64,000 nt of DNA from Escherichia phage mio: sequence record MN850631.1; one strand, written 5' to 3'. Made by a program: the position numbers and the translations under genes. The notes beneath the pieces were generated by a model. That model was not told the DNA's origin. It worked only from the letters and a program-made list of their open reading frames with translations, and did no database searches. The stretch's first letter is position 1. Each line of letters begins with the position of its first letter. Below, piece by piece: positions 6,659 through 48,064 of the stretch.

Positions 6659-7171
6659 TTAGTTCTTAAAGATATTCATCACTGAATCTTTCAACGATTC
6701 CAAACGTTCTAATACTTCAGATTCTGCGTCTGCGTTGTTCACCTCTTCTTTTAGTCTATCCTCTAAATCATCGCCGTCACGATAGCACCAATCGAAAGCG
6801 TATCCAAGATAAAAACTTTCTAAAACCGTGCTACCGTTTGCATCCACAACTTTCGCGGCAAGGCTATACTCTGAAGCCTCTAAATCTCTTTCTAGTTCTT
6901 TCTGTAAGCTTGTGTAAGCCTCTTTCGATGGATTCTCACGGCCTTGTTTTGCATAGTCACTTGAAAGCTGCTTAAGGCTGTAATGCAAAGGGATTGCATA
7001 TTTAAACTCATTACGCTGACAGTTGGTGTTTTTAATAGTTACACCGCCTTGATGGTCATCTGTAAACTCCCAATTATCCATATTATGGCTTGCTTCGTAG
7101 CAATTAACAGCCTCATAAATGATGGAAAATTTTTCTTTTACAACTTCAAAGGTAGCGTCTACAGTTTTCAT
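6659..7171 (-). CDS. hypothetical early protein (170 aa), acidic C-terminal half
   Basis: ATG 7169-7171 with RBS in conserved element. Confidence 0.6.
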   Translation of the reverse strand: MKTVDATFEVVKEKFSIIYEAVNCYEASHNMDNWEFTDDHQGGVTIKNTNCQRNEFKYAIPLHYSLKQLSSDYAKQGRENPSKEAYTSLQKELERDLEASEYSLAAKVVDANGSTVLESFYLGYAFDWCYRDGDDLEDRLKEEVNNADAESEVLERLESLKDSVMNIFKN

Positions 7172-7266
7172 TTTTGAATCTCCTAGTTTAAGGACTTGAT
7201 TTAGTGGTAAAGCTCTTTATCTGGGGCTTAAGATATCAACTTTTAAGCCCCTTGTAAAGTACTTTA
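7172..7266 (-). promoter_or_regulatory. conserved intercistronic element, hairpin type B
   Basis: Core plus GGGGCTTAA-N13-TTAAGCCCC then TTGTAAAGTACTTT. Confidence 0.5.
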
Positions 7267-7524
7267 TCAGATTAAATTGCCAGTTAATGATAAGTGCATT
7301 TTATAGCCTTTTTTGGTAAAAACGTTCACTTTACCGAGTGATTTTACACCTTTAAAAAGGTTGTTTGAACTGCGTTTTAAGGTTAGTTGCTTATCAGCTT
7401 TCACGCCCCACCTTACAGCAGTTTGTTTTCCGTTGTCAACCACTTTTCCGCATAACTTTTTAGCCATAACGCGAGCGTCATCACGAGTCTTTGCAGTAAT
7501 TACAACGTTTTTGATAATAGCCAT
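7267..7524 (-). CDS. hypothetical early protein (85 aa), lysine-rich; start moved from TTG (7539) to ATG (7524)
   Basis: ATG 7522-7524 with GGAGA RBS inside conserved core; track start codon is TTG. Confidence 0.5.
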   Translation of the reverse strand: MAIIKNVVITAKTRDDARVMAKKLCGKVVDNGKQTAVRWGVKADKQLTLKRSSNNLFKGVKSLGKVNVFTKKGYKMHLSLTGNLI

Positions 7525-7613
7525 TTTTAAGTTCTCCAATTTAGGATTTAGTGGTAAAGCTCTTTATCTGGGGCTTACTTTATCGAACTATAAGCCCCTT
7601 GTAAAGTACTTTA
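7525..7613 (-). promoter_or_regulatory. conserved intercistronic element, hairpin type B
   Basis: Variant core CATTTTTAAGTTCTCCAATTTAGG plus GGGGCTTA-CTTTATCGAACTA-TAAGCCCC. Confidence 0.5.
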
Positions 7614-7994
7614 TTAGTTAATTTTGAAAATTGTCACATAACCATCGCTCCCGATGATTTGTGATACCCCAGCTTTTTCTACTTGATAGCCCATATTTTC
7701 AAGATGGTAAACAGCATCATCGTAACCATATGCGCCACCCTGATAACGTCGCTTATCACATTTTATCAGGTTTTTACCGCGTCCAGCAAGTGCATTCAGT
7801 ACGGCTTTTTCACTTGATAGTGTACCATCTATCATGGTTGCCGTGTAATGGTTGATTTTATTCCCATTAATATCATACTTAAAATTGAATGCGTGAACAA
7901 TAATCAATTTACCGTTAAATTTTTCATCAAGTGACTTCTCCAGTGCGTTGCGGAAGTTGTCTTTATTGATGAATTTCGGTGCACGATAAGCCAT
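7614..7994 (-). CDS. hypothetical early protein (126 aa)
   Basis: ATG 7992-7994 with RBS in conserved element. Confidence 0.6.
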   Translation of the reverse strand: MAYRAPKFINKDNFRNALEKSLDEKFNGKLIIVHAFNFKYDINGNKINHYTATMIDGTLSSEKAVLNALAGRGKNLIKCDKRRYQGGAYGYDDAVYHLENMGYQVEKAGVSQIIGSDGYVTIFKIN

Positions 7995-8082
7995 TTTAGA
8001 ATCTCCTAGTTTAAGGTAAGTTAGTAAAGCTCTTTATCTGGGGCTTAAGATATCAGCTTTTAAGCCCCTTGTAAAGTACTTT
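7995..8082 (-). promoter_or_regulatory. conserved intercistronic element, hairpin type B
   Basis: Core CATTTTAGAATCTCCTAGTTTAAGG plus GGGGCTTAA-N13-TTAAGCCCC then TTGTAAAGTACTTT. Confidence 0.5.
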
Positions 8083-8289
8083 TTATATATCGTAATAGTA
8101 AACCGCTGTCTGTTTTATATGTCGCTTTGTATTCTTTGTTAGGTAGCAATTAGAGTTAATTGCCGTTTCTACATAGTTGCAATAATCAGCTTCTGATATT
8201 CTACGCCATGCGCCGCACACTTGCATATAAAAACGTTTTGCCTTTGTGTTAACGTTGGTTGTAACCATCAATTCGCGACTGTACATCAT
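8083..8289 (-). CDS. hypothetical early protein (68 aa); first gene of the leftward array
   Basis: ATG 8287-8289; upstream partial core CATTTTGGATTCTCCAGTTTAGGAAG. Confidence 0.5.
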   Translation of the reverse strand: MMYSRELMVTTNVNTKAKRFYMQVCGAWRRISEADYCNYVETAINSNCYLTKNTKRHIKQTAVYYYDI

Positions 8290-8539
8290 TTTGGATTCTC
8301 CAGTTTAGGAAGTGGGCTTGCTTGCCCGTCTGATGCAAATATTAGATAACCATACTCAAAGAGTCAATAGGAATTTTAAAAATATTTTTGCAAGAATTGT
8401 AATGAAACGGGTGCGCGCGACTACCACAAAACAGAACTACAATCAAGAATTATTTTTCAATCCGCTACAAATTTTTCTGTTGACTTTTATTTCCAGATGT
8501 GGTAGCCTTGTGAGAAATGGCGACATTCCCACCTGCACC

Positions 8540-8725
8540 CACCTACCTGCACAATTCTAAAATGATTTTTCTTGCCCGACCTGAGTGGGTTCTGCACGTT
8601 TTGAAAATGAAAAAGCTCTTTGGAGATTACCTGCACAGTTTGAAAATGAATTTTCTCTTTGGAGTTCAAAATTCTCTCTACAGATTTCTCTACAGAACTC
8701 TACCTGCACAATTCTAAAATGAAAA
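8540..8725. repeat. direct repeats in ORF-free gap (CTACCTGCACAATTCTAAAATGA twice; two tandem ~38 bp CTGCACNTTTTGAAAATGA...CTCTTTGGAG units)
   Basis: Identical 23-mer at 8543-8565 and 8700-8722; related units at about 8590-8627 and 8628-8665. Confidence 0.55.
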
Positions 8726-8795
8726 AGCCCTCCTTACCTGAAAAATTTACCAGATAAGAAAGGCTTAGTCTATTGTGAATATTCTACAGAGTTTC

Positions 8796-9581
8796 TTAGT
8801 TCTTTGCGTCTAAGAAGGTAACTTCCGGTGAAGAGAAAATTCCCTCAACATCCTCATCAGTTCTTGCATAGATATATGTATCTGCATCACTGCCAAATGT
8901 TACTGCAATTCTGTGATTGCTCTTCGACAGGTGGGTAACTAGAGCGTTACTTAGAGACATCTTTTCAACCGGAGGGTTACTTTGATGTACCTTACCTTTT
9001 CTTCGTCTGAAGAGGGTAACTGCATCGTCAGTGAACACTACTACACCTGCAAAGTATTCTGGTTCACAGTAGTTCTTCCAACCTGAGCGTAACTTGTGGT
9101 ACATCTCTCCTTCGTAGACATATAGATAGACATCTACACTCTTCATCACCTGATTAATGATAACGGTGACGGCTTGAGGGTCAAGTCCACCGATACCTGC
9201 ACCAATCATAGGTAAACCAACTTTCTTCAACTGATTAACTTCACAGTATCTGTTAAGTTGCTTCAAAGATGACTCTAAAGCACTGTATCGGGCATCTTTA
9301 CCAGTCTTAAGCTGAGTGTAAAGATTGGCTATACGGCCTTGTTTTAAACGTGCTACAGAGAAATTGCCTAGCAAATTTTCACAGGGTTTGTGACCTATAC
9401 CACCTGCATACAGATAAACTTCTGTATCGGTCTCATATGCTTTTGGGTAAAGTTTAGAAATCTTATCAGCGATACCTGCACCCATTAAGTTCATACAGTT
9501 GCAACCGTGACCAATGATATCAAACTTACCTTTATCAAATGCGGAGAAGATATCCCCATTGATGATTTTTACAATACCCAT
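8796..9581 (-). CDS. macrodomain protein (TARG1/DarG-like ADP-ribose binding/hydrolase fold) with ~100 aa C-terminal extension
   Basis: N-terminal GDIFSAFDKGKFDIIGHGCNCMNLMGAGIA...GLPMIGAGIGGL matches the macrodomain pattern; ATG 9579-9581 overlaps upstream stop. Confidence 0.65.
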   Translation of the reverse strand: MGIVKIINGDIFSAFDKGKFDIIGHGCNCMNLMGAGIADKISKLYPKAYETDTEVYLYAGGIGHKPCENLLGNFSVARLKQGRIANLYTQLKTGKDARYSALESSLKQLNRYCEVNQLKKVGLPMIGAGIGGLDPQAVTVIINQVMKSVDVYLYVYEGEMYHKLRSGWKNYCEPEYFAGVVVFTDDAVTLFRRRKGKVHQSNPPVEKMSLSNALVTHLSKSNHRIAVTFGSDADTYIYARTDEDVEGIFSSPEVTFLDAKN

Positions 9582-9782
9582 CTAGCATCTCTCCCAAGAT
9601 TCTTTATCTTCTGAAGGTTTTACACGTTGTCCTTCGTGGTCTACCCAGATACATCCACAACCTTCACAGATTACTGGCATTGCATAGCCAGCTTTAAAGT
9701 CATCTTCAGTGATAAGACCTTTTAAGTCACCTGTATCACGTCCAAACATTTCGATAGCACAATCTTTGCAGAAGTCAGCCAT
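9582..9782 (-). CDS. small Cys-rich protein (66 aa), putative zinc ribbon; track start (GTG 9860) replaced by ATG 9782
   Basis: CKDC...CEGCGC motifs; ATG 9780-9782 overlaps upstream stop by 8 nt. Confidence 0.45.
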   Translation of the reverse strand: MADFCKDCAIEMFGRDTGDLKGLITEDDFKAGYAMPVICEGCGCIWVDHEGQRVKPSEDKESWERC

Positions 9783-10002
9783 TGATAATTGCCTCTTGAA
9801 TGATGATACCTTTACCACAACGACTTTTAAAGTCTTCCAATGGCTGGGAGATAAAGCCACGTAAGCAATAACTGAATGCTAATTTTTTCCTGTAGACTAT
9901 CACATCATTTGCTGTAAAAGGAATCACTTCATTCCTTCCAATAAATACTGCTGAACGTACAATCTTGCAGGTCTTTTTATCTCTGGCTAGTATTACTTTC
10001 AT
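9775..10002 (-). CDS. hypothetical protein (75 aa)
   Basis: ATG 10000-10002; part of tightly overlapping leftward operon. Confidence 0.45.
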   Translation of the reverse strand: MKVILARDKKTCKIVRSAVFIGRNEVIPFTANDVIVYRKKLAFSYCLRGFISQPLEDFKSRCGKGIIIQEAIING

Positions 10003-10303
10003 AGTTTACCTTCTCAGTTAGCTCATACAAGTCAACATGCTCAATACTATCAATGTTGATACCAATCTTTTTGAAGCGTTCTATCACTTCGTTGTCAGTC
10101 ATCCATATCAGACACCAATGATTATGGATGGATTCTTCAAGAAGGTCAACACAGTCTTTAAAAGTTTTTGTATCACTTCTTGTTCCGACTACTGCGATTG
10201 TCCCATACAACCACTTACCATTACCATAAGATACTTGTGCTACGCCAACTTCTTTATCTTTCTCGTAGTAAACGGCTACAAAATCTCTTCCGTTAATCTG
10301 CAT
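9977..10303 (-). CDS. hypothetical protein (108 aa); start moved to ATG 10303 (track start TTG 10342)
   Basis: ATG 10301-10303 preceded by AGAGGAA RBS; alternative ATG at 10333. Confidence 0.45.
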   Translation of the reverse strand: MQINGRDFVAVYYEKDKEVGVAQVSYGNGKWLYGTIAVVGTRSDTKTFKDCVDLLEESIHNHWCLIWMTDNEVIERFKKIGINIDSIEHVDLYELTEKVNYESNTSQR

Positions 10304-10607
10304 TTGTAAGTTCCTCTGTTGGTAATTCACCATTCTCAGCAAAGTATTGAAGGTACGGCAACAGTTCTTTTACCTGTTCTTGATTGAGCTTCATTCTTTG
10401 ATTACCTACAAAATCTTTGCCTACTAACGCTGGGATATCAAGTGTTTTCCAGCCACCATCTAGGTACTGAATAGAGACCTCTTTAGCACCTAACCAGATA
10501 CATGGTTCATATGATGAACTTTCTTGTAAAGTACAAATCTCTCCTTTAGCATCTTTAAATTCTGCATAAGAAAATCCACGATTTGTTGGCTGGAATTGCA
10601 TAATCAT
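10293..10607 (-). CDS. hypothetical protein (104 aa)
   Basis: ATG 10605-10607; overlaps neighbours. Confidence 0.5.
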   Translation of the reverse strand: MIMQFQPTNRGFSYAEFKDAKGEICTLQESSSYEPCIWLGAKEVSIQYLDGGWKTLDIPALVGKDFVGNQRMKLNQEQVKELLPYLQYFAENGELPTEELTNAD

Positions 10608-10873
10608 TTCCTCGTTTTAAGAACTGCTAAGATTTCTTTAGAGTCTGGTAAGAACCATGTGTAGTGATTCTCTTTGATTTCTGGATGAGTGTCAACCTTT
10701 ATTTTGCACTCTTTACCAACATGCTTCAGTTGTGCTGTGATGCCTTGCATAAAAATATGACACATCACGTTATCCATAATGGTCGGTGAGAAATCAATTC
10801 GCATATAAGTTTCTTTTGGTCGTGGTAGCAGTAAGTACCCTTCTACATAGAAAGTGTCTTCATTCTCTGTCAT
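10604..10873 (-). CDS. hypothetical protein (89 aa)
   Basis: ATG 10871-10873; ATGA-type overlap with upstream gene. Confidence 0.5.
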   Translation of the reverse strand: MTENEDTFYVEGYLLLPRPKETYMRIDFSPTIMDNVMCHIFMQGITAQLKHVGKECKIKVDTHPEIKENHYTWFLPDSKEILAVLKTRK

Positions 10874-11139
10874 TGCTGTTTGTTCCCTAATAAAAGCATA
10901 TCAATAAGGTTATTAGCTTTGATTGTGCACTGGTAAAAACCATCACGATAAAACTCAAGGGCTGCTGCCACATCACTACCAGTATTACCTTTGACAGTGA
11001 ATCTTGACTCTTCTTGAGTGTACTTGTCACCCTCACTCACTTGGGAGTTTTTGAATGTACTGTTCACTTTGTTCGTTGAACACCCTGACATAATTATCAG
11101 TAACACAAACATTATAAAACTCTGGCTTAGTTTTTTCAT
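10870..11139 (-). CDS. putative lipoprotein (89 aa), o-spanin-like; gene starts inside the upstream TM-protein gene in another frame
   Basis: Signal MKKLSQSFIMFVLLIIMSGC with lipobox-like MSGC; AGAGGT RBS 8 nt upstream of ATG 11137-11139. Confidence 0.45.
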   Translation of the reverse strand: MKKLSQSFIMFVLLIIMSGCSTNKVNSTFKNSQVSEGDKYTQEESRFTVKGNTGSDVAAALEFYRDGFYQCTIKANNLIDMLLLGNKQQ

Positions 11140-11380
11140 ATGTTAGTACCTCTTTTGTATGCTTATTCTTAGCAAGCACATCTTTCAAATCGTTTTTGTA
11201 ATTGGCGCTTAGTGTGGCTAAACCTTCCTGATAAGCATCTTTAGCAACACTTATTAGTTTCTCATTATTTAGCTCAGCTTCAGCAACTTGATAGTCTCGG
11301 TAAGAGTATCCTCCCCAGACACCCGCTCCAACTAAGAAAACAATTATGAAAGTAGCTTGACAGAACTCTTTAAATGTCAT
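11033..11380 (-). CDS. membrane protein with N-terminal TM helix and coiled-coil-like periplasmic part (115 aa), i-spanin-like
   Basis: N-terminus FIIVFLVGAGVWGGYSY hydrophobic; AGGAGA RBS 7 nt upstream of ATG 11378-11380; overlaps lipoprotein ORF by 107 nt. Confidence 0.5.
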   Translation of the reverse strand: MTFKEFCQATFIIVFLVGAGVWGGYSYRDYQVAEAELNNEKLISVAKDAYQEGLATLSANYKNDLKDVLAKNKHTKEVLTYEKTKPEFYNVCVTDNYVRVFNEQSEQYIQKLPSE

Positions 11381-11394
11381 TTAACAATCTCCTG

Positions 11395-11420
11395 AAATGA
11401 AAAAGGCTCCCGAAGGAGCC
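11395..11420 (-). terminator. putative intrinsic terminator
   Basis: GGCTCC-CGAA-GGAGCC hairpin with T-run on the minus strand. Confidence 0.45.
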
Positions 11421-11432
11421 TGTATCTTAACC

Positions 11433-11897
11433 TTAACCGAGGACTTTAGCAAGGACATTTGCAGCCATCGAAGAAGCTTTTGCAGCAGCAGCTACCCCAG
11501 CTTTGACGGTGCTATCCTTGATAGCAGATACCGTTGCAGCATCAGTAAAGAGATAAGTAGTTGTTTTAGAACCACTTGTAAAGGAAAGCATAAGAGCAGT
11601 TTCCAGATTGAAAGAGCGATACGGAGCACCTTCTTTAACAATACCTTCAGCACCTAATTCTGAAGCCATCCCCATATCATAGATAGTCATCAGGTTTTCT
11701 TTGTGTGCTGTCGTTGAGCCAGAACCTTTTACGTGTTTCTTAACATTCAAAAGAGCGCGATACTCTCGAATGTTACCATCTGCTTTTACGTTGACAGCAC
11801 GGAAGATTTTACCCTCAAAGTTGTTCTTGATAATGTTACGAACTACTTCAGATTTGTTTGCCGTAACGTCCAGTGCTACCGTAATGATATTGTTCAT
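11433..11897 (-). CDS. hypothetical protein (154 aa), Ala-rich C-terminus
   Basis: ATG 11895-11897; no recognisable motif. Confidence 0.55.
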   Translation of the reverse strand: MNNIITVALDVTANKSEVVRNIIKNNFEGKIFRAVNVKADGNIREYRALLNVKKHVKGSGSTTAHKENLMTIYDMGMASELGAEGIVKEGAPYRSFNLETALMLSFTSGSKTTTYLFTDAATVSAIKDSTVKAGVAAAAKASSMAANVLAKVLG

Positions 11898-11907
11898 AAG
11901 TTTTCTC

Positions 11908-12603
11908 TCAATGTTTAACTAACATGGTTTTGATGTGTGGAAGGATTCTGTTCACCTTCTGCACATTCTTCTCTGTATCTTCTATAAAACATACTATATT
12001 AAAGTAAGGCAGAATGCAAGACTGAATCATCCTCACTTTCAAACTTTCTGCACTTATAGAGTTAGTCCCAAAACCACGCATAAAAAGCATGTAGTCATGC
12101 TCTGTGTTATGCCTTAAAAACATCTCAGTAGGTATTCTCTGAGATTCACCTCTCGCTGTCAAGAGTCCAACAGCAGCATGATTAGCAATTGCATCAATGA
12201 TATTGAAAACATACGTTGGTTTTGCTCTTACAGAGTCAAGAAGATTAGTGTACTGTAAAAATGAACCATCAGTCAATTCCGTTGAACAATCTTCGTGATT
12301 AAAATTTGTAAGAACACCATCAATATCTGCTAAGATAAGGTTACCTTTCTCTACAAGGTCTTTATTGACTATGACTAAGCTATCACGACTTACACCTATA
12401 GTCTGTCCAGTCTCTTTATCTTCAACATTCACAATTGGCTCTGATGTGTGGAACTCTTCAAGTGAACATACAACTTCTCTCGCAGTGTCTTCAAAATCCC
12501 TGCACTGTTCTGGAGTCCATACACAGGAATCAAGACCTAACTCATGAGGATGTAAGTCATAAGCATGACACAGTACTTCATCAGACTTTCTTAATTTTTT
12601 CAT
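11908..12603 (-). CDS. HAD-superfamily phosphatase-like protein (231 aa) with N-terminal domain of unknown function
   Basis: LADIDGVLTNF (DxDG motif I) and GLLTARGE (motif II-like) in the C-terminal half. Confidence 0.45.
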   Translation of the reverse strand: MKKLRKSDEVLCHAYDLHPHELGLDSCVWTPEQCRDFEDTAREVVCSLEEFHTSEPIVNVEDKETGQTIGVSRDSLVIVNKDLVEKGNLILADIDGVLTNFNHEDCSTELTDGSFLQYTNLLDSVRAKPTYVFNIIDAIANHAAVGLLTARGESQRIPTEMFLRHNTEHDYMLFMRGFGTNSISAESLKVRMIQSCILPYFNIVCFIEDTEKNVQKVNRILPHIKTMLVKH

Positions 12604-13129
12604 GGTTTACCTTAGAAATGTTTGTTGCAAATTCACATTGAGCGATGACTTTCATGTTGTTATAGACATCTTGAGAATATTTCTTAGCTTTAGGGATTCT
12701 GTACGAATACCCAGCATTATATGATGCTAAAACTTTTTGTAAAGTCTTCTTTGACTTTGGCTGACCATGCACCTTTGTCCAAAACTCAAGTTCTTTGTGC
12801 GTTTCCTTTGCAGCATAGTCAAAGTCTTTTAAGAGTTTCTTTTTAGCCACATTAGGACTGATTTTGTTACGCTTTACAACAGTCTTCAAGTGATTCTGGA
12901 AAATACCATAATCATGTGTCTTTTTATTCTCTACCTTCAGACCTAACTCTGACTCTTGTAAGGCTATAGCAGCTAGAGTGATACCCCAACCTTTACCCAT
13001 GTTATTCTCACCATACTGGTAAGCTTTTAACATGTTTACTTTTTGGCTAATTGATAGCTCTGGGCAGTCAACTGCATAAGATAAGTGTGCTGTAAACATT
13101 AAGCACAAACCTAGAATCAATTTCTTCAT
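12581..13129 (-). CDS. secreted lytic transglycosylase (SLT domain) with N-terminal signal peptide
   Basis: Signal MKKLILGLCLMFTAHLSYA; SLT motifs ALQESELG, DYGIFQ, ASYNAGYSY. Confidence 0.7.
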   Translation of the reverse strand: MKKLILGLCLMFTAHLSYAVDCPELSISQKVNMLKAYQYGENNMGKGWGITLAAIALQESELGLKVENKKTHDYGIFQNHLKTVVKRNKISPNVAKKKLLKDFDYAAKETHKELEFWTKVHGQPKSKKTLQKVLASYNAGYSYRIPKAKKYSQDVYNNMKVIAQCEFATNISKVNHEKIKKV

Positions 13130-47505: not shown

Positions 47506-47869
47506 CAGTATTCTTTGTGTTCTTCTCAGTAATAGCTTGGAGGGCTGATACTGATTGAGCCAGATTGTTCACACTGTCAGAGAATTTATCAAGAGTTTTC
47601 GTCAGTTTTGCATTCTCACCCTTAACATTCTCTAACTGAACTTTCTGGTTCTCCATCCCTAACTGAATAAGTCTCATGTCAGACTGTAAATCACGAATAG
47701 CTGAATAGTTACTACTTGTGTAATTATCTAGCTGCTGTAACTTTGTTTTGACAGACACTTCTTGCTTACCACTTGAAACTTGCATAGTGGTATACATCCC
47801 AATAACACTAAAAATACCAACAACAATTGCACCAATATTATTTTTAAAAGCTTCCTCTAGCCACTTCAT
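47498..47869 (-). CDS. membrane-anchored coiled-coil protein (123 aa)
   Basis: N-terminal hydrophobic helix IGAIVVGIFSVIGMY followed by heptad-like region. Confidence 0.5.
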   Translation of the reverse strand: MKWLEEAFKNNIGAIVVGIFSVIGMYTTMQVSSGKQEVSVKTKLQQLDNYTSSNYSAIRDLQSDMRLIQLGMENQKVQLENVKGENAKLTKTLDKFSDSVNNLAQSVSALQAITEKNTKNTEK

Positions 47870-48064
47870 TTATTTCTCCCCCTTAAAAGCTTTTTCTAAG
47901 TTATCTACGAACTCATCATCAATAGGTGTGTCTGTCTTACCCGCAAGGTATCTTGCAAGCTTAAAGAACACTTTCTCAATCATGTATTCACTCAGAAGGG
48001 ATAAAATGAGTTTCCAGAAGAAGCTACCTAGATTTTTTAGAAGAATTGCTAGGATTGTAGGCAT
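47870..48064 (-). CDS. small membrane protein (64 aa), holin-like size
   Basis: One hydrophobic segment ILAILLKNLGSFFWKLILSLL and charged C-terminus. Confidence 0.4.
   Translation of the reverse strand: MPTILAILLKNLGSFFWKLILSLLSEYMIEKVFFKLARYLAGKTDTPIDDEFVDNLEKAFKGEK

What the first reader, a model, noticed from the sequence alone, without database searches (positions are those of the whole stretch)
9582..11380. Translationally coupled operon of seven small ORFs feeding into the macrodomain gene
Between the terminator at about 11395-11420 and the macrodomain gene there are seven short ORFs with 4-26 nt overlaps at most junctions (one gene pair overlaps by 107 nt): a TM protein, an embedded lipoprotein, three unknowns of 89-108 aa, a 75 aa protein and a 66 aa Cys-rich zinc-ribbon protein. 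Such compact co-transcribed sets of unknowns next to a putative anti-defence enzyme are where novel host-interaction factors tend to lie.
Basis: seen in the sequence. Interest (0 to 1): 0.55.

Follow-up and report, generated by a model that had tools for sequence, protein, structure and literature searches.

The report
Felix O1 spanin-to-macrodomain gene block
The seven small genes are real and tightly packed, but they are an already annotated block of a Felix O1-like phage: the first two are its lysis spanins, and the other five are conserved small proteins of unknown function that sit before a T4 Tk.4-like macrodomain gene.

Summary
Window 9582-11380 (minus strand) carries seven gapless ORFs, bounded with the macrodomain gene by two intrinsic terminators. 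All seven evolve under purifying selection.

The window is a Felixounavirus, and the block equals Felix O1 ORF6-ORF13. It is annotated in about 250 GenBank genomes, and both terminators (t5, t13) were published in 2010.

- **TM protein and "embedded" lipoprotein:** these are the phage's two-component spanin pair. The architecture is overlapped, not embedded, and the pair is already catalogued in the spanin literature.
- **ORF3, ORF5 and ORF6:** soluble proteins restricted to Felixounavirus, Suspvirus and Mooglevirus. ORF6 evolves fast.
- **ORF4:** a cassette present in only about 72 of 257 relatives, and also found in Pseudomonas and Caulobacter jumbo phages.
- **ORF7:** belongs to a very large, almost wholly viral 4-Cys family (MADFC...CEGCG, over 1000 clusters at 50% identity). 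Its homologue in phage Bas54 is non-essential.
- **Origin of ORF3-7:** in Kolesnikvirus and in phage Bas90 the spanins directly abut the macrodomain gene, so ORF3-7 look like a lineage-specific insertion.
- **Macrodomain:** it is homologous to T4 Tk.4/AdfM, a reported anti-DarTG2 factor.

No function could be assigned to ORF3-7. The finding is ordinary and of low novelty.

The parts
11394..11421 (-). Intrinsic terminator (Felix O1 't5'): 7-bp GC stem with UUCG loop followed by UUUUUCAUUU. It lies about 14 nt upstream of the i-spanin AGGAG Shine-Dalgarno.
   Evidence: centroid -13 kcal/mol. Published as t5 in Whichard 2010. A hairpin in the same place, with a different stem sequence, occurs in Kolesnikvirus and Bas90.
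11033..11380 (-). i-spanin (115 aa; Felix O1 ORF6): N-terminal transmembrane segment at residues 6-24 and a periplasmic domain with the conserved YEKTKPxFYNVC motif.
   Evidence: phrog_1152 'Rz-like spanin' at E 4.8e-41. Hydrophobic segment. Annotated as i-spanin in relatives. dN/dS 0.06-0.24.
10870..11139 (-). o-spanin (89 aa; Felix O1 ORF7): signal peptide MKKLSQSFIMFVLLIIMSG|C with a lipobox. It is in the +1 frame, overlaps the i-spanin gene by 107 nt and extends 163 nt beyond it (overlapped architecture).
   Evidence: phrog_4180 at 1.6e-49 and a weak hit to phrog_456 'Rz-like spanin'. Full-length homologues with lipoboxes occur in L011 and L012. Felix O1 is listed under 'Overlapped' in Kongari 2018.
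10604..10873 (-). ORF3 (89 aa; Felix O1 ORF8): soluble protein of unknown function. Its start overlaps the o-spanin stop (ATGA), and its own SD is weak.
   Evidence: phrog_4391 (unknown function) at 3e-60. tblastn hits only in the same 257 Ounavirinae records. dN/dS 0.04-0.18. No Pfam, NCBIfam, PADLOC or PDB match.
10293..10601 (-). ORF4 (102 aa from ATG 10601; Felix O1 ORF9): acidic, soluble, variable cassette bracketed by GAGGAA SD repeats at 10613-10608 and 10316-10311.
   Evidence: phrog_25740/3849. Absent in L004, L005 and L007, and replaced by a 57-aa ORF in L006. Found in 72 Ounavirinae plus Pseudomonas and Caulobacter phages. Diverse homologues. AF2 pLDDT 75, with no convincing fold match.
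9977..10303 (-). ORF5 (108 aa; Felix O1 ORF10): acidic, soluble, restricted to this lineage. The label 'tail assembly protein' in some records has no support.
   Evidence: phrog_4453 (unknown function). Only 7 clusters. Found only in the 257 Ounavirinae records. Not among the Felix O1 virion proteins. dN/dS up to 0.31.
9775..10002 (-). ORF6 (75 aa; Felix O1 ORF11): basic (pI 9.9) and fast-evolving, with a conserved N-terminus (MK.I...K.T....VF....V.PF) and a variable centre.
   Evidence: phrog_6082. 33-99% identity among relatives, detectable in 167 of 257 records. Alignment of all alleles at this position. dN/dS 0.12-0.26 in the informative comparisons.
9582..9782 (-). ORF7 (66 aa; Felix O1 ORF12, 'phage conserved protein'): acidic 4-Cys zinc-ribbon-like protein (C5, C8, C39, C42) of a very large viral family.
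   Evidence: phrog_2210. A profile search finds 1056 clusters at E<=1e-3. Homologues stand alone in T5-like and rV5-like phages. The Cys residues are invariant. The Bas54 homologue is non-essential.
8796..9581 (-). Macrodomain protein (261 aa; Felix O1 ORF13). The N-terminal macro domain is Tk.4/AdfM- and DarG-like. The C-terminal part of about 100 aa is unassigned.
   Evidence: Pfam Macro at 1.1e-7 (32.3 bits against a cut-off of 22). DarG models at 1e-12 and 4e-13. About 34% identity to T4-like Tk.4 next to vs. T4 Tk.4 = AdfM, anti-DarTG2.
8715..8766 (-). Strong intrinsic terminator (Felix O1 't13'): 17-bp stem followed by a T-tract. It closes the block.
   Evidence: -26 kcal/mol, z = -5.2. 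Published as t13. Conserved in Suspvirus and Mooglevirus.

Best explanation
The region is the gapless block ORF6-ORF13 of a Felix O1-like myophage (Felixounavirus). It lies between a short upstream terminator (t5) and a strong downstream terminator (t13). It groups genes that are unrelated in function.

**Shown**
- The last gene is a Tk.4/AdfM-type macrodomain.
- The five genes in between are real, selected, soluble small proteins with no recognisable family.
- ORF3-7 are a lineage-specific insertion between the spanins and the macrodomain gene. ORF4 is a presence/absence cassette, and ORF7 is a widely travelling viral 4-Cys protein.

**Inferred**
- Host RNA polymerase enters the block by reading through t5 from promoters upstream, in the rIIB / vs.1-like / PNK / 154-aa units. 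A weak promoter overlapping the end of the 154-aa gene is an alternative. Transcription stops at t13.
- Each cistron is translated from its own Shine-Dalgarno. Stop/start overlaps allow re-initiation, and this matters most for ORF3, whose SD is weak.
- The products then act independently. The spanins fuse the inner and outer membranes at the last step of lysis. The macrodomain removes DarT-type ADP-ribose from phage DNA.
- ORF3-7 are dispensable accessory proteins, acting in host takeover or counter-defence, that accumulated in a permissive slot.
For: - **Identity of the window:** 257 phage records match, at 97.9% identity to phage HK3 and 93.5% to Felix O1.
- **Spanins:** phrog_1152 at E 5e-41, an N-terminal TM segment, a lipobox IMSG|C, and a +1-frame overlap of 107 nt. 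Conserved periplasmic Cys motifs are shared with the Kolesnikvirus and Bas90 pairs.
- **Coding status:** dN/dS 0.02-0.31 in the informative comparisons and an excess of third-position changes for all ORFs.
- **Boundaries and packing:** terminators. No terminator-like site lies on the minus strand between 11404 and 8766. The junction pattern 4 / 26 / 8 is kept in Suspvirus and Mooglevirus. Flanking genes have spacers of 44-507 nt.
- **Mosaic nature:** ORF4 is absent or replaced in relatives. ORF7 stands alone in T5-like and rV5-like phages and in replication modules of diverse viral contigs. The spanins directly abut the macrodomain gene in L011 and L012.
- **Macrodomain:**, with the T4 AdfM result.
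- **Transcription:** transcripts of Felix O1 ORF6, 9, 10, 12 and 13 were detected by RT-PCR.
- **Dispensability:** the ORF7 homologue bas54_0042 is non-essential, with 9 of 9 sites hit.
Against: - No promoter for the block was identified. There are only about 24 nt between the t5 stem and the ATG, and sigma-70-like hits in the region are not above shuffled expectation (24 found against 18.8 +/- 5.1).
- RT-PCR maxima differ across the block: ORF13 at 5 min, ORF9 and ORF12 at 10 min, ORF6 and ORF10 at 25 min. Whichard et al. also predicted an internal promoter, P11, before ORF11. Internal initiation therefore cannot be excluded.
- Six of the seven ORFs have good SDs of their own, so translational coupling is not needed.
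- The mature o-spanin has no proline, unlike lambda Rz1.
- Independence of ORF3-7 from the spanins and the macrodomain rests on gene distribution only.
- No experiment or homology says what ORF3-7 do.
Confidence: 0.72

Rival explanations
1. ORF3-7 together with the macrodomain form a small anti-defence or host-takeover islet. Each small acidic or basic protein would inhibit a host immunity or housekeeping target early in infection.
For: - The proteins are small and soluble. Three are acidic (pI 4.4-5.0) and one is basic and fast-evolving.
- ORF4 shows cassette-like presence/absence and occurs in unrelated jumbo phages.
- The ORF7 homologue is dispensable in the laboratory.
- The block is adjacent to a Tk.4/AdfM-type gene.
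- Expression in Felix O1 is early to middle.
Against: - There is no hit to any known family, and PADLOC, Pfam and NCBIfam are all empty.
- bas54_0042 was not among the anti-defence hits of the HIDEN-SEQ screens.
- ORF6 is under purifying rather than diversifying selection overall.
- The linkage to the macrodomain is not conserved: ORF7 occurs without it, and the macrodomain occurs without ORF3-7.
Confidence: 0.3
2. The block is not one operon. It consists of several transcription units with internal promoters, for example Whichard's P11 before ORF6/ORF11, and the tight packing only reflects genome economy.
For: - RT-PCR maxima differ along the block.
- P11 was predicted in Felix O1.
- Several sigma-70-like hits lie inside the block, at 11139-11111, 10695-10667 and 10149-10121.
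Against: - Promoter-like hits are not enriched over shuffled sequence.
- By my reading, the P11 sequence is not kept in this window: TTGACT is followed by about 21 nt before TAAACT.
- There are no internal terminators and no intergenic space.
- Downstream genes that do have their own promoters carry obvious spacer cassettes of about 90 nt, and this block lacks them.
Confidence: 0.25
3. ORF3-7 are accessory lysis factors, such as lysis timing regulators or spanin or endolysin modulators, co-expressed with the spanins.
For: They lie immediately downstream of the spanins, and ORF3 is coupled to the o-spanin stop by an ATGA overlap. The lysis genes of Felix O1-like phages are scattered and the holin is still uncertain.
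Against: - None of ORF3-7 has a transmembrane or signal sequence (maximum KD19 of 1.09 or less), so none can be a holin, antiholin or periplasmic factor.
- Kolesnikvirus and Bas90 carry homologous spanins without them.
- ORF7 sits in replication or early modules elsewhere.
Confidence: 0.06

Closest known systems
Two-component spanins in the overlapped architecture (P2 LysB/LysC type; compare lambda Rz/Rz1 embedded and T4 PseT.3/PseT.2 separated)
   Same: The pair has an N-terminal-TMD i-spanin and a lipoprotein o-spanin encoded in the +1 frame. The o-spanin gene starts inside the i-spanin gene and extends beyond it. Both periplasmic domains carry conserved Cys residues. Felix O1 itself is listed in the 'overlapped' class.
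   Different: The mature o-spanin is 70 aa with no proline, whereas lambda Rz1 is 40 aa with 10 Pro. The pair is not in a lysis cassette: the endolysin (Felix O1 ORF35) and the holin lie elsewhere. Function was not tested in this lineage, as far as I could find.
T4 Tk.4 / AdfM (anti-DarT factor, macrodomain) and DarG antitoxin macrodomains
   Same: The N-terminal 160 aa is a macro domain with about 34% identity to T4-like Tk.4 proteins. It also gives E 1e-12 to 4e-13 against DarG models. T4 Tk.4 protects against DarTG2.
   Different: It carries an extra C-terminal domain of about 100 aa, and it is placed after the spanins instead of between tk and vs. Activity was not tested. It lies outside the coordinates of the finding.
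Hyperplastic regions of T4-type phages: small accessory ORFs shuffled as cassettes (PeSL model; Arbiol 2010, Comeau 2014)
   Same: The region holds small non-essential ORFs of unknown function with presence/absence variation between close relatives, in the rIIA / rIIB / pseT-like early arm. Neighbouring genes at 7166-8085 carry repeated promoter-plus-stem-loop cassettes.
   Different: Inside this block the ORFs are not separated by PeSL-like cassettes. They are fused stop-to-start. The only repeats bracketing the variable ORF4 are 6-nt GAGGAA Shine-Dalgarno sequences.
PHROG 2210 / pVOG VOG1507 'phage conserved protein' (ORF7 family)
   Same: ORF7 matches over its full length at E 1e-40. The same 66-aa protein is found in T5-like and rV5-like coliphages.
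   Different: The family has no assigned function, no Pfam model and no solved structure.

Membership tests
Two-component spanin: i-spanin | Single N-terminal transmembrane domain (type II inner-membrane protein) | tested here: met
   Residues 6-24 (FCQATFIIVFLVGAGVWGG) have a mean KD of 1.75, and the rest of the protein is hydrophilic. phrog_1152 'Rz-like spanin' matches at E 4.8e-41 over residues 1-114.
Two-component spanin: i-spanin | Helical or coiled-coil periplasmic domain | not tested
   No coiled-coil or secondary-structure prediction was run. Kongari 2018 reports that this feature varies widely.
Two-component spanin: o-spanin | Signal peptidase II signal with a lipobox and Cys (outer-membrane lipoprotein) | tested here: met
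   The signal is MKKLSQSFIMFVLLIIMSG|C. Homologues in L011 (..TTAS|C) and L012 (..SMSA|C) keep it. A weak hit to lipoprotein models occurs in NCBIfam.
Two-component spanin: o-spanin | Gene embedded in, overlapping or adjacent to the i-spanin gene, out of frame | tested here: met
   The start at 11139 is 241 nt after the i-spanin start (+1 frame). The overlap is 107 nt and the gene ends 163 nt after the i-spanin stop. The same arrangement is seen in L011 and L012.
Two-component spanin: o-spanin | Proline-rich, unstructured mature domain (typical of Rz1, not strictly defining) | tested here: not met
   The mature 70-aa domain has 0 Pro. Kongari 2018 notes structured o-spanins in other families.
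Two-component spanin | Required for outer-membrane disruption at lysis | not testable with these tools
   This needs lambda Rz/Rz1 complementation or a phage knockout.
Single operon (one transcription unit) | Bounded by terminators, with no internal terminator and no intergenic gaps | tested here: met
Single operon (one transcription unit) | A promoter directly upstream and one continuous transcript | tested here: inconclusive
   There is no room for a promoter between t5 and the SD. Promoter-like hits are not above chance. The Felix O1 RT-PCR maxima differ between cistrons.
Translational coupling | Stop codon of the upstream cistron overlaps or abuts the start of the next | tested here: met
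   Junctions after the spanin pair are 4-nt overlap, 2-nt gap (or 4-nt overlap), 11, 26 and 8-nt overlaps, and 0 nt. The pattern is conserved in L003, L006 and L007. Actual coupling cannot be tested here. Six of seven cistrons have their own SD.
Macro domain / Tk.4-AdfM | Pfam Macro above the gathering score and homology to T4 Tk.4 | tested here: met
   32.3 bits against a cut-off of 22. tblastn E about 1e-17 to T4-like genes next to vs, some of them named Tk.4.
Macro domain / Tk.4-AdfM | Protects the phage from DarTG2 (ADP-ribosyl-DNA glycohydrolase) | not testable with these tools
   This is shown only for T4 Tk.4, in a preprint.
Zinc ribbon (ORF7) | Two CxxC knuckles, invariant across the family | tested here: met
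   C5, C8, C39 and C42 are invariant in 9 close and 22 distant members.
Zinc ribbon (ORF7) | Ribbon fold with both knuckles packed together | tested here: inconclusive
Known anti-defence proteins (ORF3-7) | Similarity to a characterised anti-defence family | not tested
   No anti-defence library (dbAPIS or AntiDefenseFinder) was available. Pfam, NCBIfam, PADLOC and PDB gave nothing.

The most novel reading that the evidence does not exclude
At least one of ORF3-7 is a new counter-defence or host-takeover factor. ORF7 is the best candidate for wider interest. It is the Felix O1 representative of a very large, almost wholly viral, uncharacterised 4-Cys family (MADFCxxC...CEGCG). The family has more than 1000 clusters at 50% identity, no Pfam model and no solved structure. 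It sits in the early or replication modules of many unrelated phages, including T5-like and rV5-like coliphages.
Probability: 0.25. Interest if true: 0.5.

Novelty: already known. Interest (0 to 1): 0.2.

Why it matters
Little here is new. The block, its ORFs and its terminators have been in the Felix O1 literature and in GenBank since 2003-2010. The spanin pair is catalogued.

The practical value is in corrections and pointers:
- Two of the seven "unknowns" can be struck off as lysis genes.
- Several GenBank records mis-start the o-spanin, which removes its lipobox, or label ORF5 a "tail assembly protein" without basis.
- The macrodomain next door can now be read as a Tk.4/AdfM homologue, so it is a testable anti-DarTG2 candidate in a therapeutic phage genus.
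- ORF7 marks a big uncharacterised viral zinc-ribbon family that is dispensable in at least one model phage.

For anyone screening Felixounavirus accessory genes, ORF4, ORF6 and ORF7 are the sensible first targets.

Tried and rejected
**Family and structure searches on ORF3-7 that found nothing useful**
- Pfam at E<=1, NCBIfam and PADLOC gave only noise.
- PDB sequence searches at E<=10 gave nothing.
- Domain-fusion search on 22 long ORF7-family members found no informative Pfam domain.

**Context and distribution searches**
- Neighbours of ORF7 homologues in 20 diverse viral contigs were methylases, an exonuclease, a polymerase and a helicase. No constant partner emerged.
- A scan of bacterial genomes gave only 5 loci, mostly phage-like MAG contigs.
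- ORF5 homologues form only 7 clusters, too shallow for structure prediction.

**RNA and repeat scans**
- Rfam on the whole window found no family.
- tRNA and tandem-repeat scans found nothing.

**Literature**
- No Felixounavirus RNA-seq study was found.
- Nothing links Felixounavirus to macrodomains.

**Ideas considered and rejected**
- Some ORFs are spurious or gene fragments. This is rejected by dN/dS and by conserved lengths and SDs.
- The antisense ORF 10037-10309(+) is a gene. It is broken by stops in relatives.
- ORF3-7 include a holin. None has a hydrophobic segment.
Full report
**What the window is.** The stretch 8700-12000 matches 257 phage records. The best is Escherichia phage HK3 at 97.9% identity, and Felix O1 itself matches at 93.5%. 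All close hits are Ounavirinae, genus Felixounavirus. The finding corresponds gene for gene to Felix O1 ORF6-ORF12, followed by ORF13, the macrodomain "phosphatase".

**Checking the observation.** The seven minus-strand ORFs are at the stated coordinates, and the overlaps are 107, 4, 4, 11, 26, 8 and 0 nt. A terminator-like hairpin lies at 11421-11404 with a T-tract. A much stronger one (17-bp stem, -26 kcal/mol, z -5.2) lies at 8766-8725, after the macrodomain gene. No terminator-like site lies between them on the minus strand. Both terminators were published as t5 and t13 of Felix O1.

The ORFs are genuine genes:
- Nei-Gojobori dN/dS against seven relatives is 0.02-0.31 for nearly every informative comparison. 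The relatives include Suspvirus and Mooglevirus at about 76-78% DNA identity. Two near-identical HK3 pairs with 3-5 substitutions give 0.5-1.0.
- Variable sites pile up at third codon positions.
- The 90-aa antisense ORF is interrupted by stops in four relatives.

In genomes that lack ORF4, the ORF3 stop sits 2 nt before the ATG equivalent to 10303. Homologues of ORF7 begin MADFC, in the great majority at residue 1.

Two corrections apply. The lipoprotein gene is overlapped rather than embedded. ORF4 probably starts at ATG 10601, because GAGGA lies 7 nt upstream, homologues start MQFQ, and Felix O1 ORF9 is annotated that way. That makes the ORF3/ORF4 junction a 2-nt gap.

The gapless run is a true local feature. 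In Felix O1 all seven junctions of ORF6-13 are overlaps or gaps of 2 nt or less, whereas 11 of the other 14 same-strand junctions in ORF1-23 have gaps of 44-507 nt.

**Genes 1 and 2 are the spanins.**
- The 115-aa protein matches PHROG 1152 "Rz-like spanin" at E 4.8e-41 and has one N-terminal hydrophobic segment.
- The 89-aa protein has a textbook lipoprotein signal, MKKLSQSFIMFVLLIIMSG|C. Its gene starts 241 nt into the first gene, in the +1 frame, overlaps it by 107 nt and runs 163 nt beyond it.
- Homologous pairs with the same layout, a lipobox and conserved periplasmic Cys motifs occur in Erwinia phage Pistou (Kolesnikvirus) and in phage Bas90.
- GenBank records already call them i-spanin and o-spanin. 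A genome announcement notes that Felix O1-like lysis genes are scattered. Kongari et al. 2018 list Felix O1 among overlapped two-component spanins.
- The only atypical trait is a proline-free mature o-spanin.
- Some records, HK3 among them, start the o-spanin at an internal GTG equivalent to window 11067. That removes the signal peptide, which is a known annotation problem.

**Genes 3-7.** None has a hydrophobic segment. None matches Pfam, NCBIfam, PADLOC or any PDB sequence.
- **ORF3 and ORF5** occur only in the same 257 Ounavirinae records. ORF5 has just seven 90%-identity clusters in the large protein collection. The "tail assembly protein" label on ORF5 in some records has no support. PHROG 4453 is of unknown function, and gp10 was not among the Felix O1 virion proteins.
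- **ORF6** is basic and fast-evolving. Identity among relatives is 33-99%, and it is detectable in 167 of 257 records. It still aligns at its N-terminus with every allele at that position, and it is under purifying selection overall.
- **ORF4** is a cassette.
  - It is missing in HMD-P10, SP2 and a Mooglevirus, and it is replaced by an unrelated 57-aa ORF in a Suspvirus.
  - It is fused to that 57-aa module in phage Michonne.
  - It is present in 72 Ounavirinae plus Pseudomonas and Caulobacter jumbo phages and a cyanobacterial MAG.
  - It is bracketed by GAGGAA Shine-Dalgarno repeats.
  - Its AF2 model (pLDDT 75) has six strands and a C-terminal helix. No convincing structural neighbour was found.
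- **ORF7** has four invariant Cys residues (C5, C8, C39, C42).
  - A profile search finds 1056 representative clusters at E<=1e-3.
  - Proteins 67-75% identical stand alone among the tRNA genes of T5-like phages and at the end of an operon in rV5-like phages.
  - In diverse viral contigs its neighbours are methylases, exonuclease, polymerase and helicase genes, with no constant partner.
  - It is almost absent from bacterial genomes.
  - Long family members carry no informative fused domain.
  - Its homologue in phage MaxBurger (Bas54) is bas54_0042, at the same coordinates 47698-47898. That gene tolerated insertions at 9 of 9 sites in the HIDEN-SEQ study and was not among its anti-defence hits.

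[quoted passage not shown] Bas90 is a 77.5-kb phage with its own sigma factor, so it is probably phiEco32-like; that is my inference. A terminator hairpin just before the i-spanin SD is present in all these lineages, with different stem sequences. The simplest reading is an ancestral terminator / spanin pair / macrodomain arrangement. Small genes were then inserted into it in the common ancestor of Felixounavirus, Suspvirus and Mooglevirus, and ORF4 still comes and goes.

**The macrodomain gene.** It passes the Pfam Macro threshold and resembles DarG macrodomains. Its N-terminal 165 aa are about 34% identical (E about 1e-17) to T4-like proteins encoded next to vs, some of which are named Tk.4. 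The Felix O1 RefSeq note says the same. A 2025 preprint shows that T4 Tk.4 (AdfM) is needed to resist DarTG2. It is untested here and lies outside the finding.

**Expression.**
- There is no space for a promoter between t5 and the i-spanin SD. Sigma-70-like hits in the area are no more frequent than in shuffled sequence.
- The upstream units (vs.1-like, PNK and the 154-aa gene) are co-directional. t5 is a short 7-bp UUCG hairpin. Read-through is therefore the most economical explanation, but this is an inference.
- In Felix O1, end-point RT-PCR detected transcripts of ORF6, 9, 10, 12 and 13. Their maxima differed (25, 10, 25, 10 and 5 min). An internal promoter, P11, was predicted there, but it is not well conserved in this window.
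- By contrast, genes downstream of the block are each preceded by a repeated cassette of about 90 nt. The cassette holds a -35-like TTTACA and a stem-loop, reminiscent of T4 PeSL elements. This block lacks such cassettes.
- Six of the seven cistrons have good SDs at 6-9 nt. Only ORF3 has a weak one and an ATGA overlap with the o-spanin stop, so it is the cistron most likely to depend on coupling.

**Verdict.** It is a compact block of a well-sequenced phage genus, made of a known lysis pair, five conserved hypothetical proteins and a Tk.4-like macrodomain. The interpretation as one operon "feeding into" the macrodomain is only partly supported. The idea that ORF3-7 are host-interaction factors is neither supported nor excluded. 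The most interesting residue is ORF7's large uncharacterised viral family.

Noticed in passing
window 8544-8722 (minus strand), inside the roughly 500-nt gene-free stretch 8290-8795: Three copies of TCATTTT[AC][AG]AA[CT][TG]GTGCAGGTA match the pattern exactly, against 0.02 expected by chance. A fourth, degenerate copy lies at about 8592-8625. The first copy abuts the T-tract of terminator t13. The motif is conserved in Suspvirus and Mooglevirus. Its function is unknown; it could be a regulator-binding or promoter array.
   Followed up: partly
window 7985-8085, 7515-7612 and 7166-7264 (minus strand): Three near-identical intergenic cassettes of about 90 nt read AAGTACTTTACAAGGGGCTTAAAAGYTGATATCTTAAGCCCCAGATAAAGAGCTTTACC...AGGAGA..ATG. 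Each has a -35-like TTTACA and an 8-bp hairpin that contains a -10-like hexamer. They resemble the PeSL promoter/stem-loop cassettes of T4-type hyperplastic regions.
   Followed up: partly
L011 4124-4613 and L012 2307-2802, compared with window 8796-11380: The arrangement terminator hairpin, i-spanin, overlapped o-spanin, macrodomain gene is conserved in Kolesnikvirus (Erwinia phage Pistou) and in the 77.5-kb phage Bas90, at only 25-34% protein identity. The o-spanin is unannotated in Pistou and mis-started in Bas90.
   Followed up: partly
window 10870-11139; GenBank PP526765 (HK3), PV469800, MW362867: Several deposited genomes start the o-spanin at an internal GTG equivalent to window 11067. 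This deletes the signal peptide and lipobox. The 89-aa MKK... start is the conserved one.
   Followed up: yes
window 9977-10303: ORF5 homologues are labelled 'tail assembly protein' in several records. Its PHROG is of unknown function, and the protein was not found in Felix O1 virions, so the label looks like propagated error.
   Followed up: yes
window 8796-9086: The macrodomain protein carries a C-terminal extension of about 100 aa that is absent from T4 Tk.4-type proteins. Similarity to the Kolesnikvirus homologue was detected only over the macro domain (residues 3-153), although that gene is about 260 aa. No family was assigned.
   Followed up: no
window 12581-13129, 11908-12603 and 11433-11897 (minus strand): The upstream unit encodes a 182-aa secreted protein (signal peptide; T4 vs.1-like according to the Felix O1 note), a polynucleotide kinase-like protein and a conserved 154-aa unknown. 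The 154-aa protein is 55% identical in Kolesnikvirus. The neighbourhood resembles the T4 rII / pseT / spanin early arm.
   Followed up: no
L006 1689-1862; P0023 and P0025: The 57-aa ORF that replaces ORF4 in Suspvirus EcSzw-2 is homologous to the C-terminal extension fused to ORF4 in 150-155-aa proteins, P0025 from Citrobacter phage Michonne and P0023 from an unnamed metagenomic contig. The slot therefore holds a two-module, shuffling locus.
   Followed up: partly
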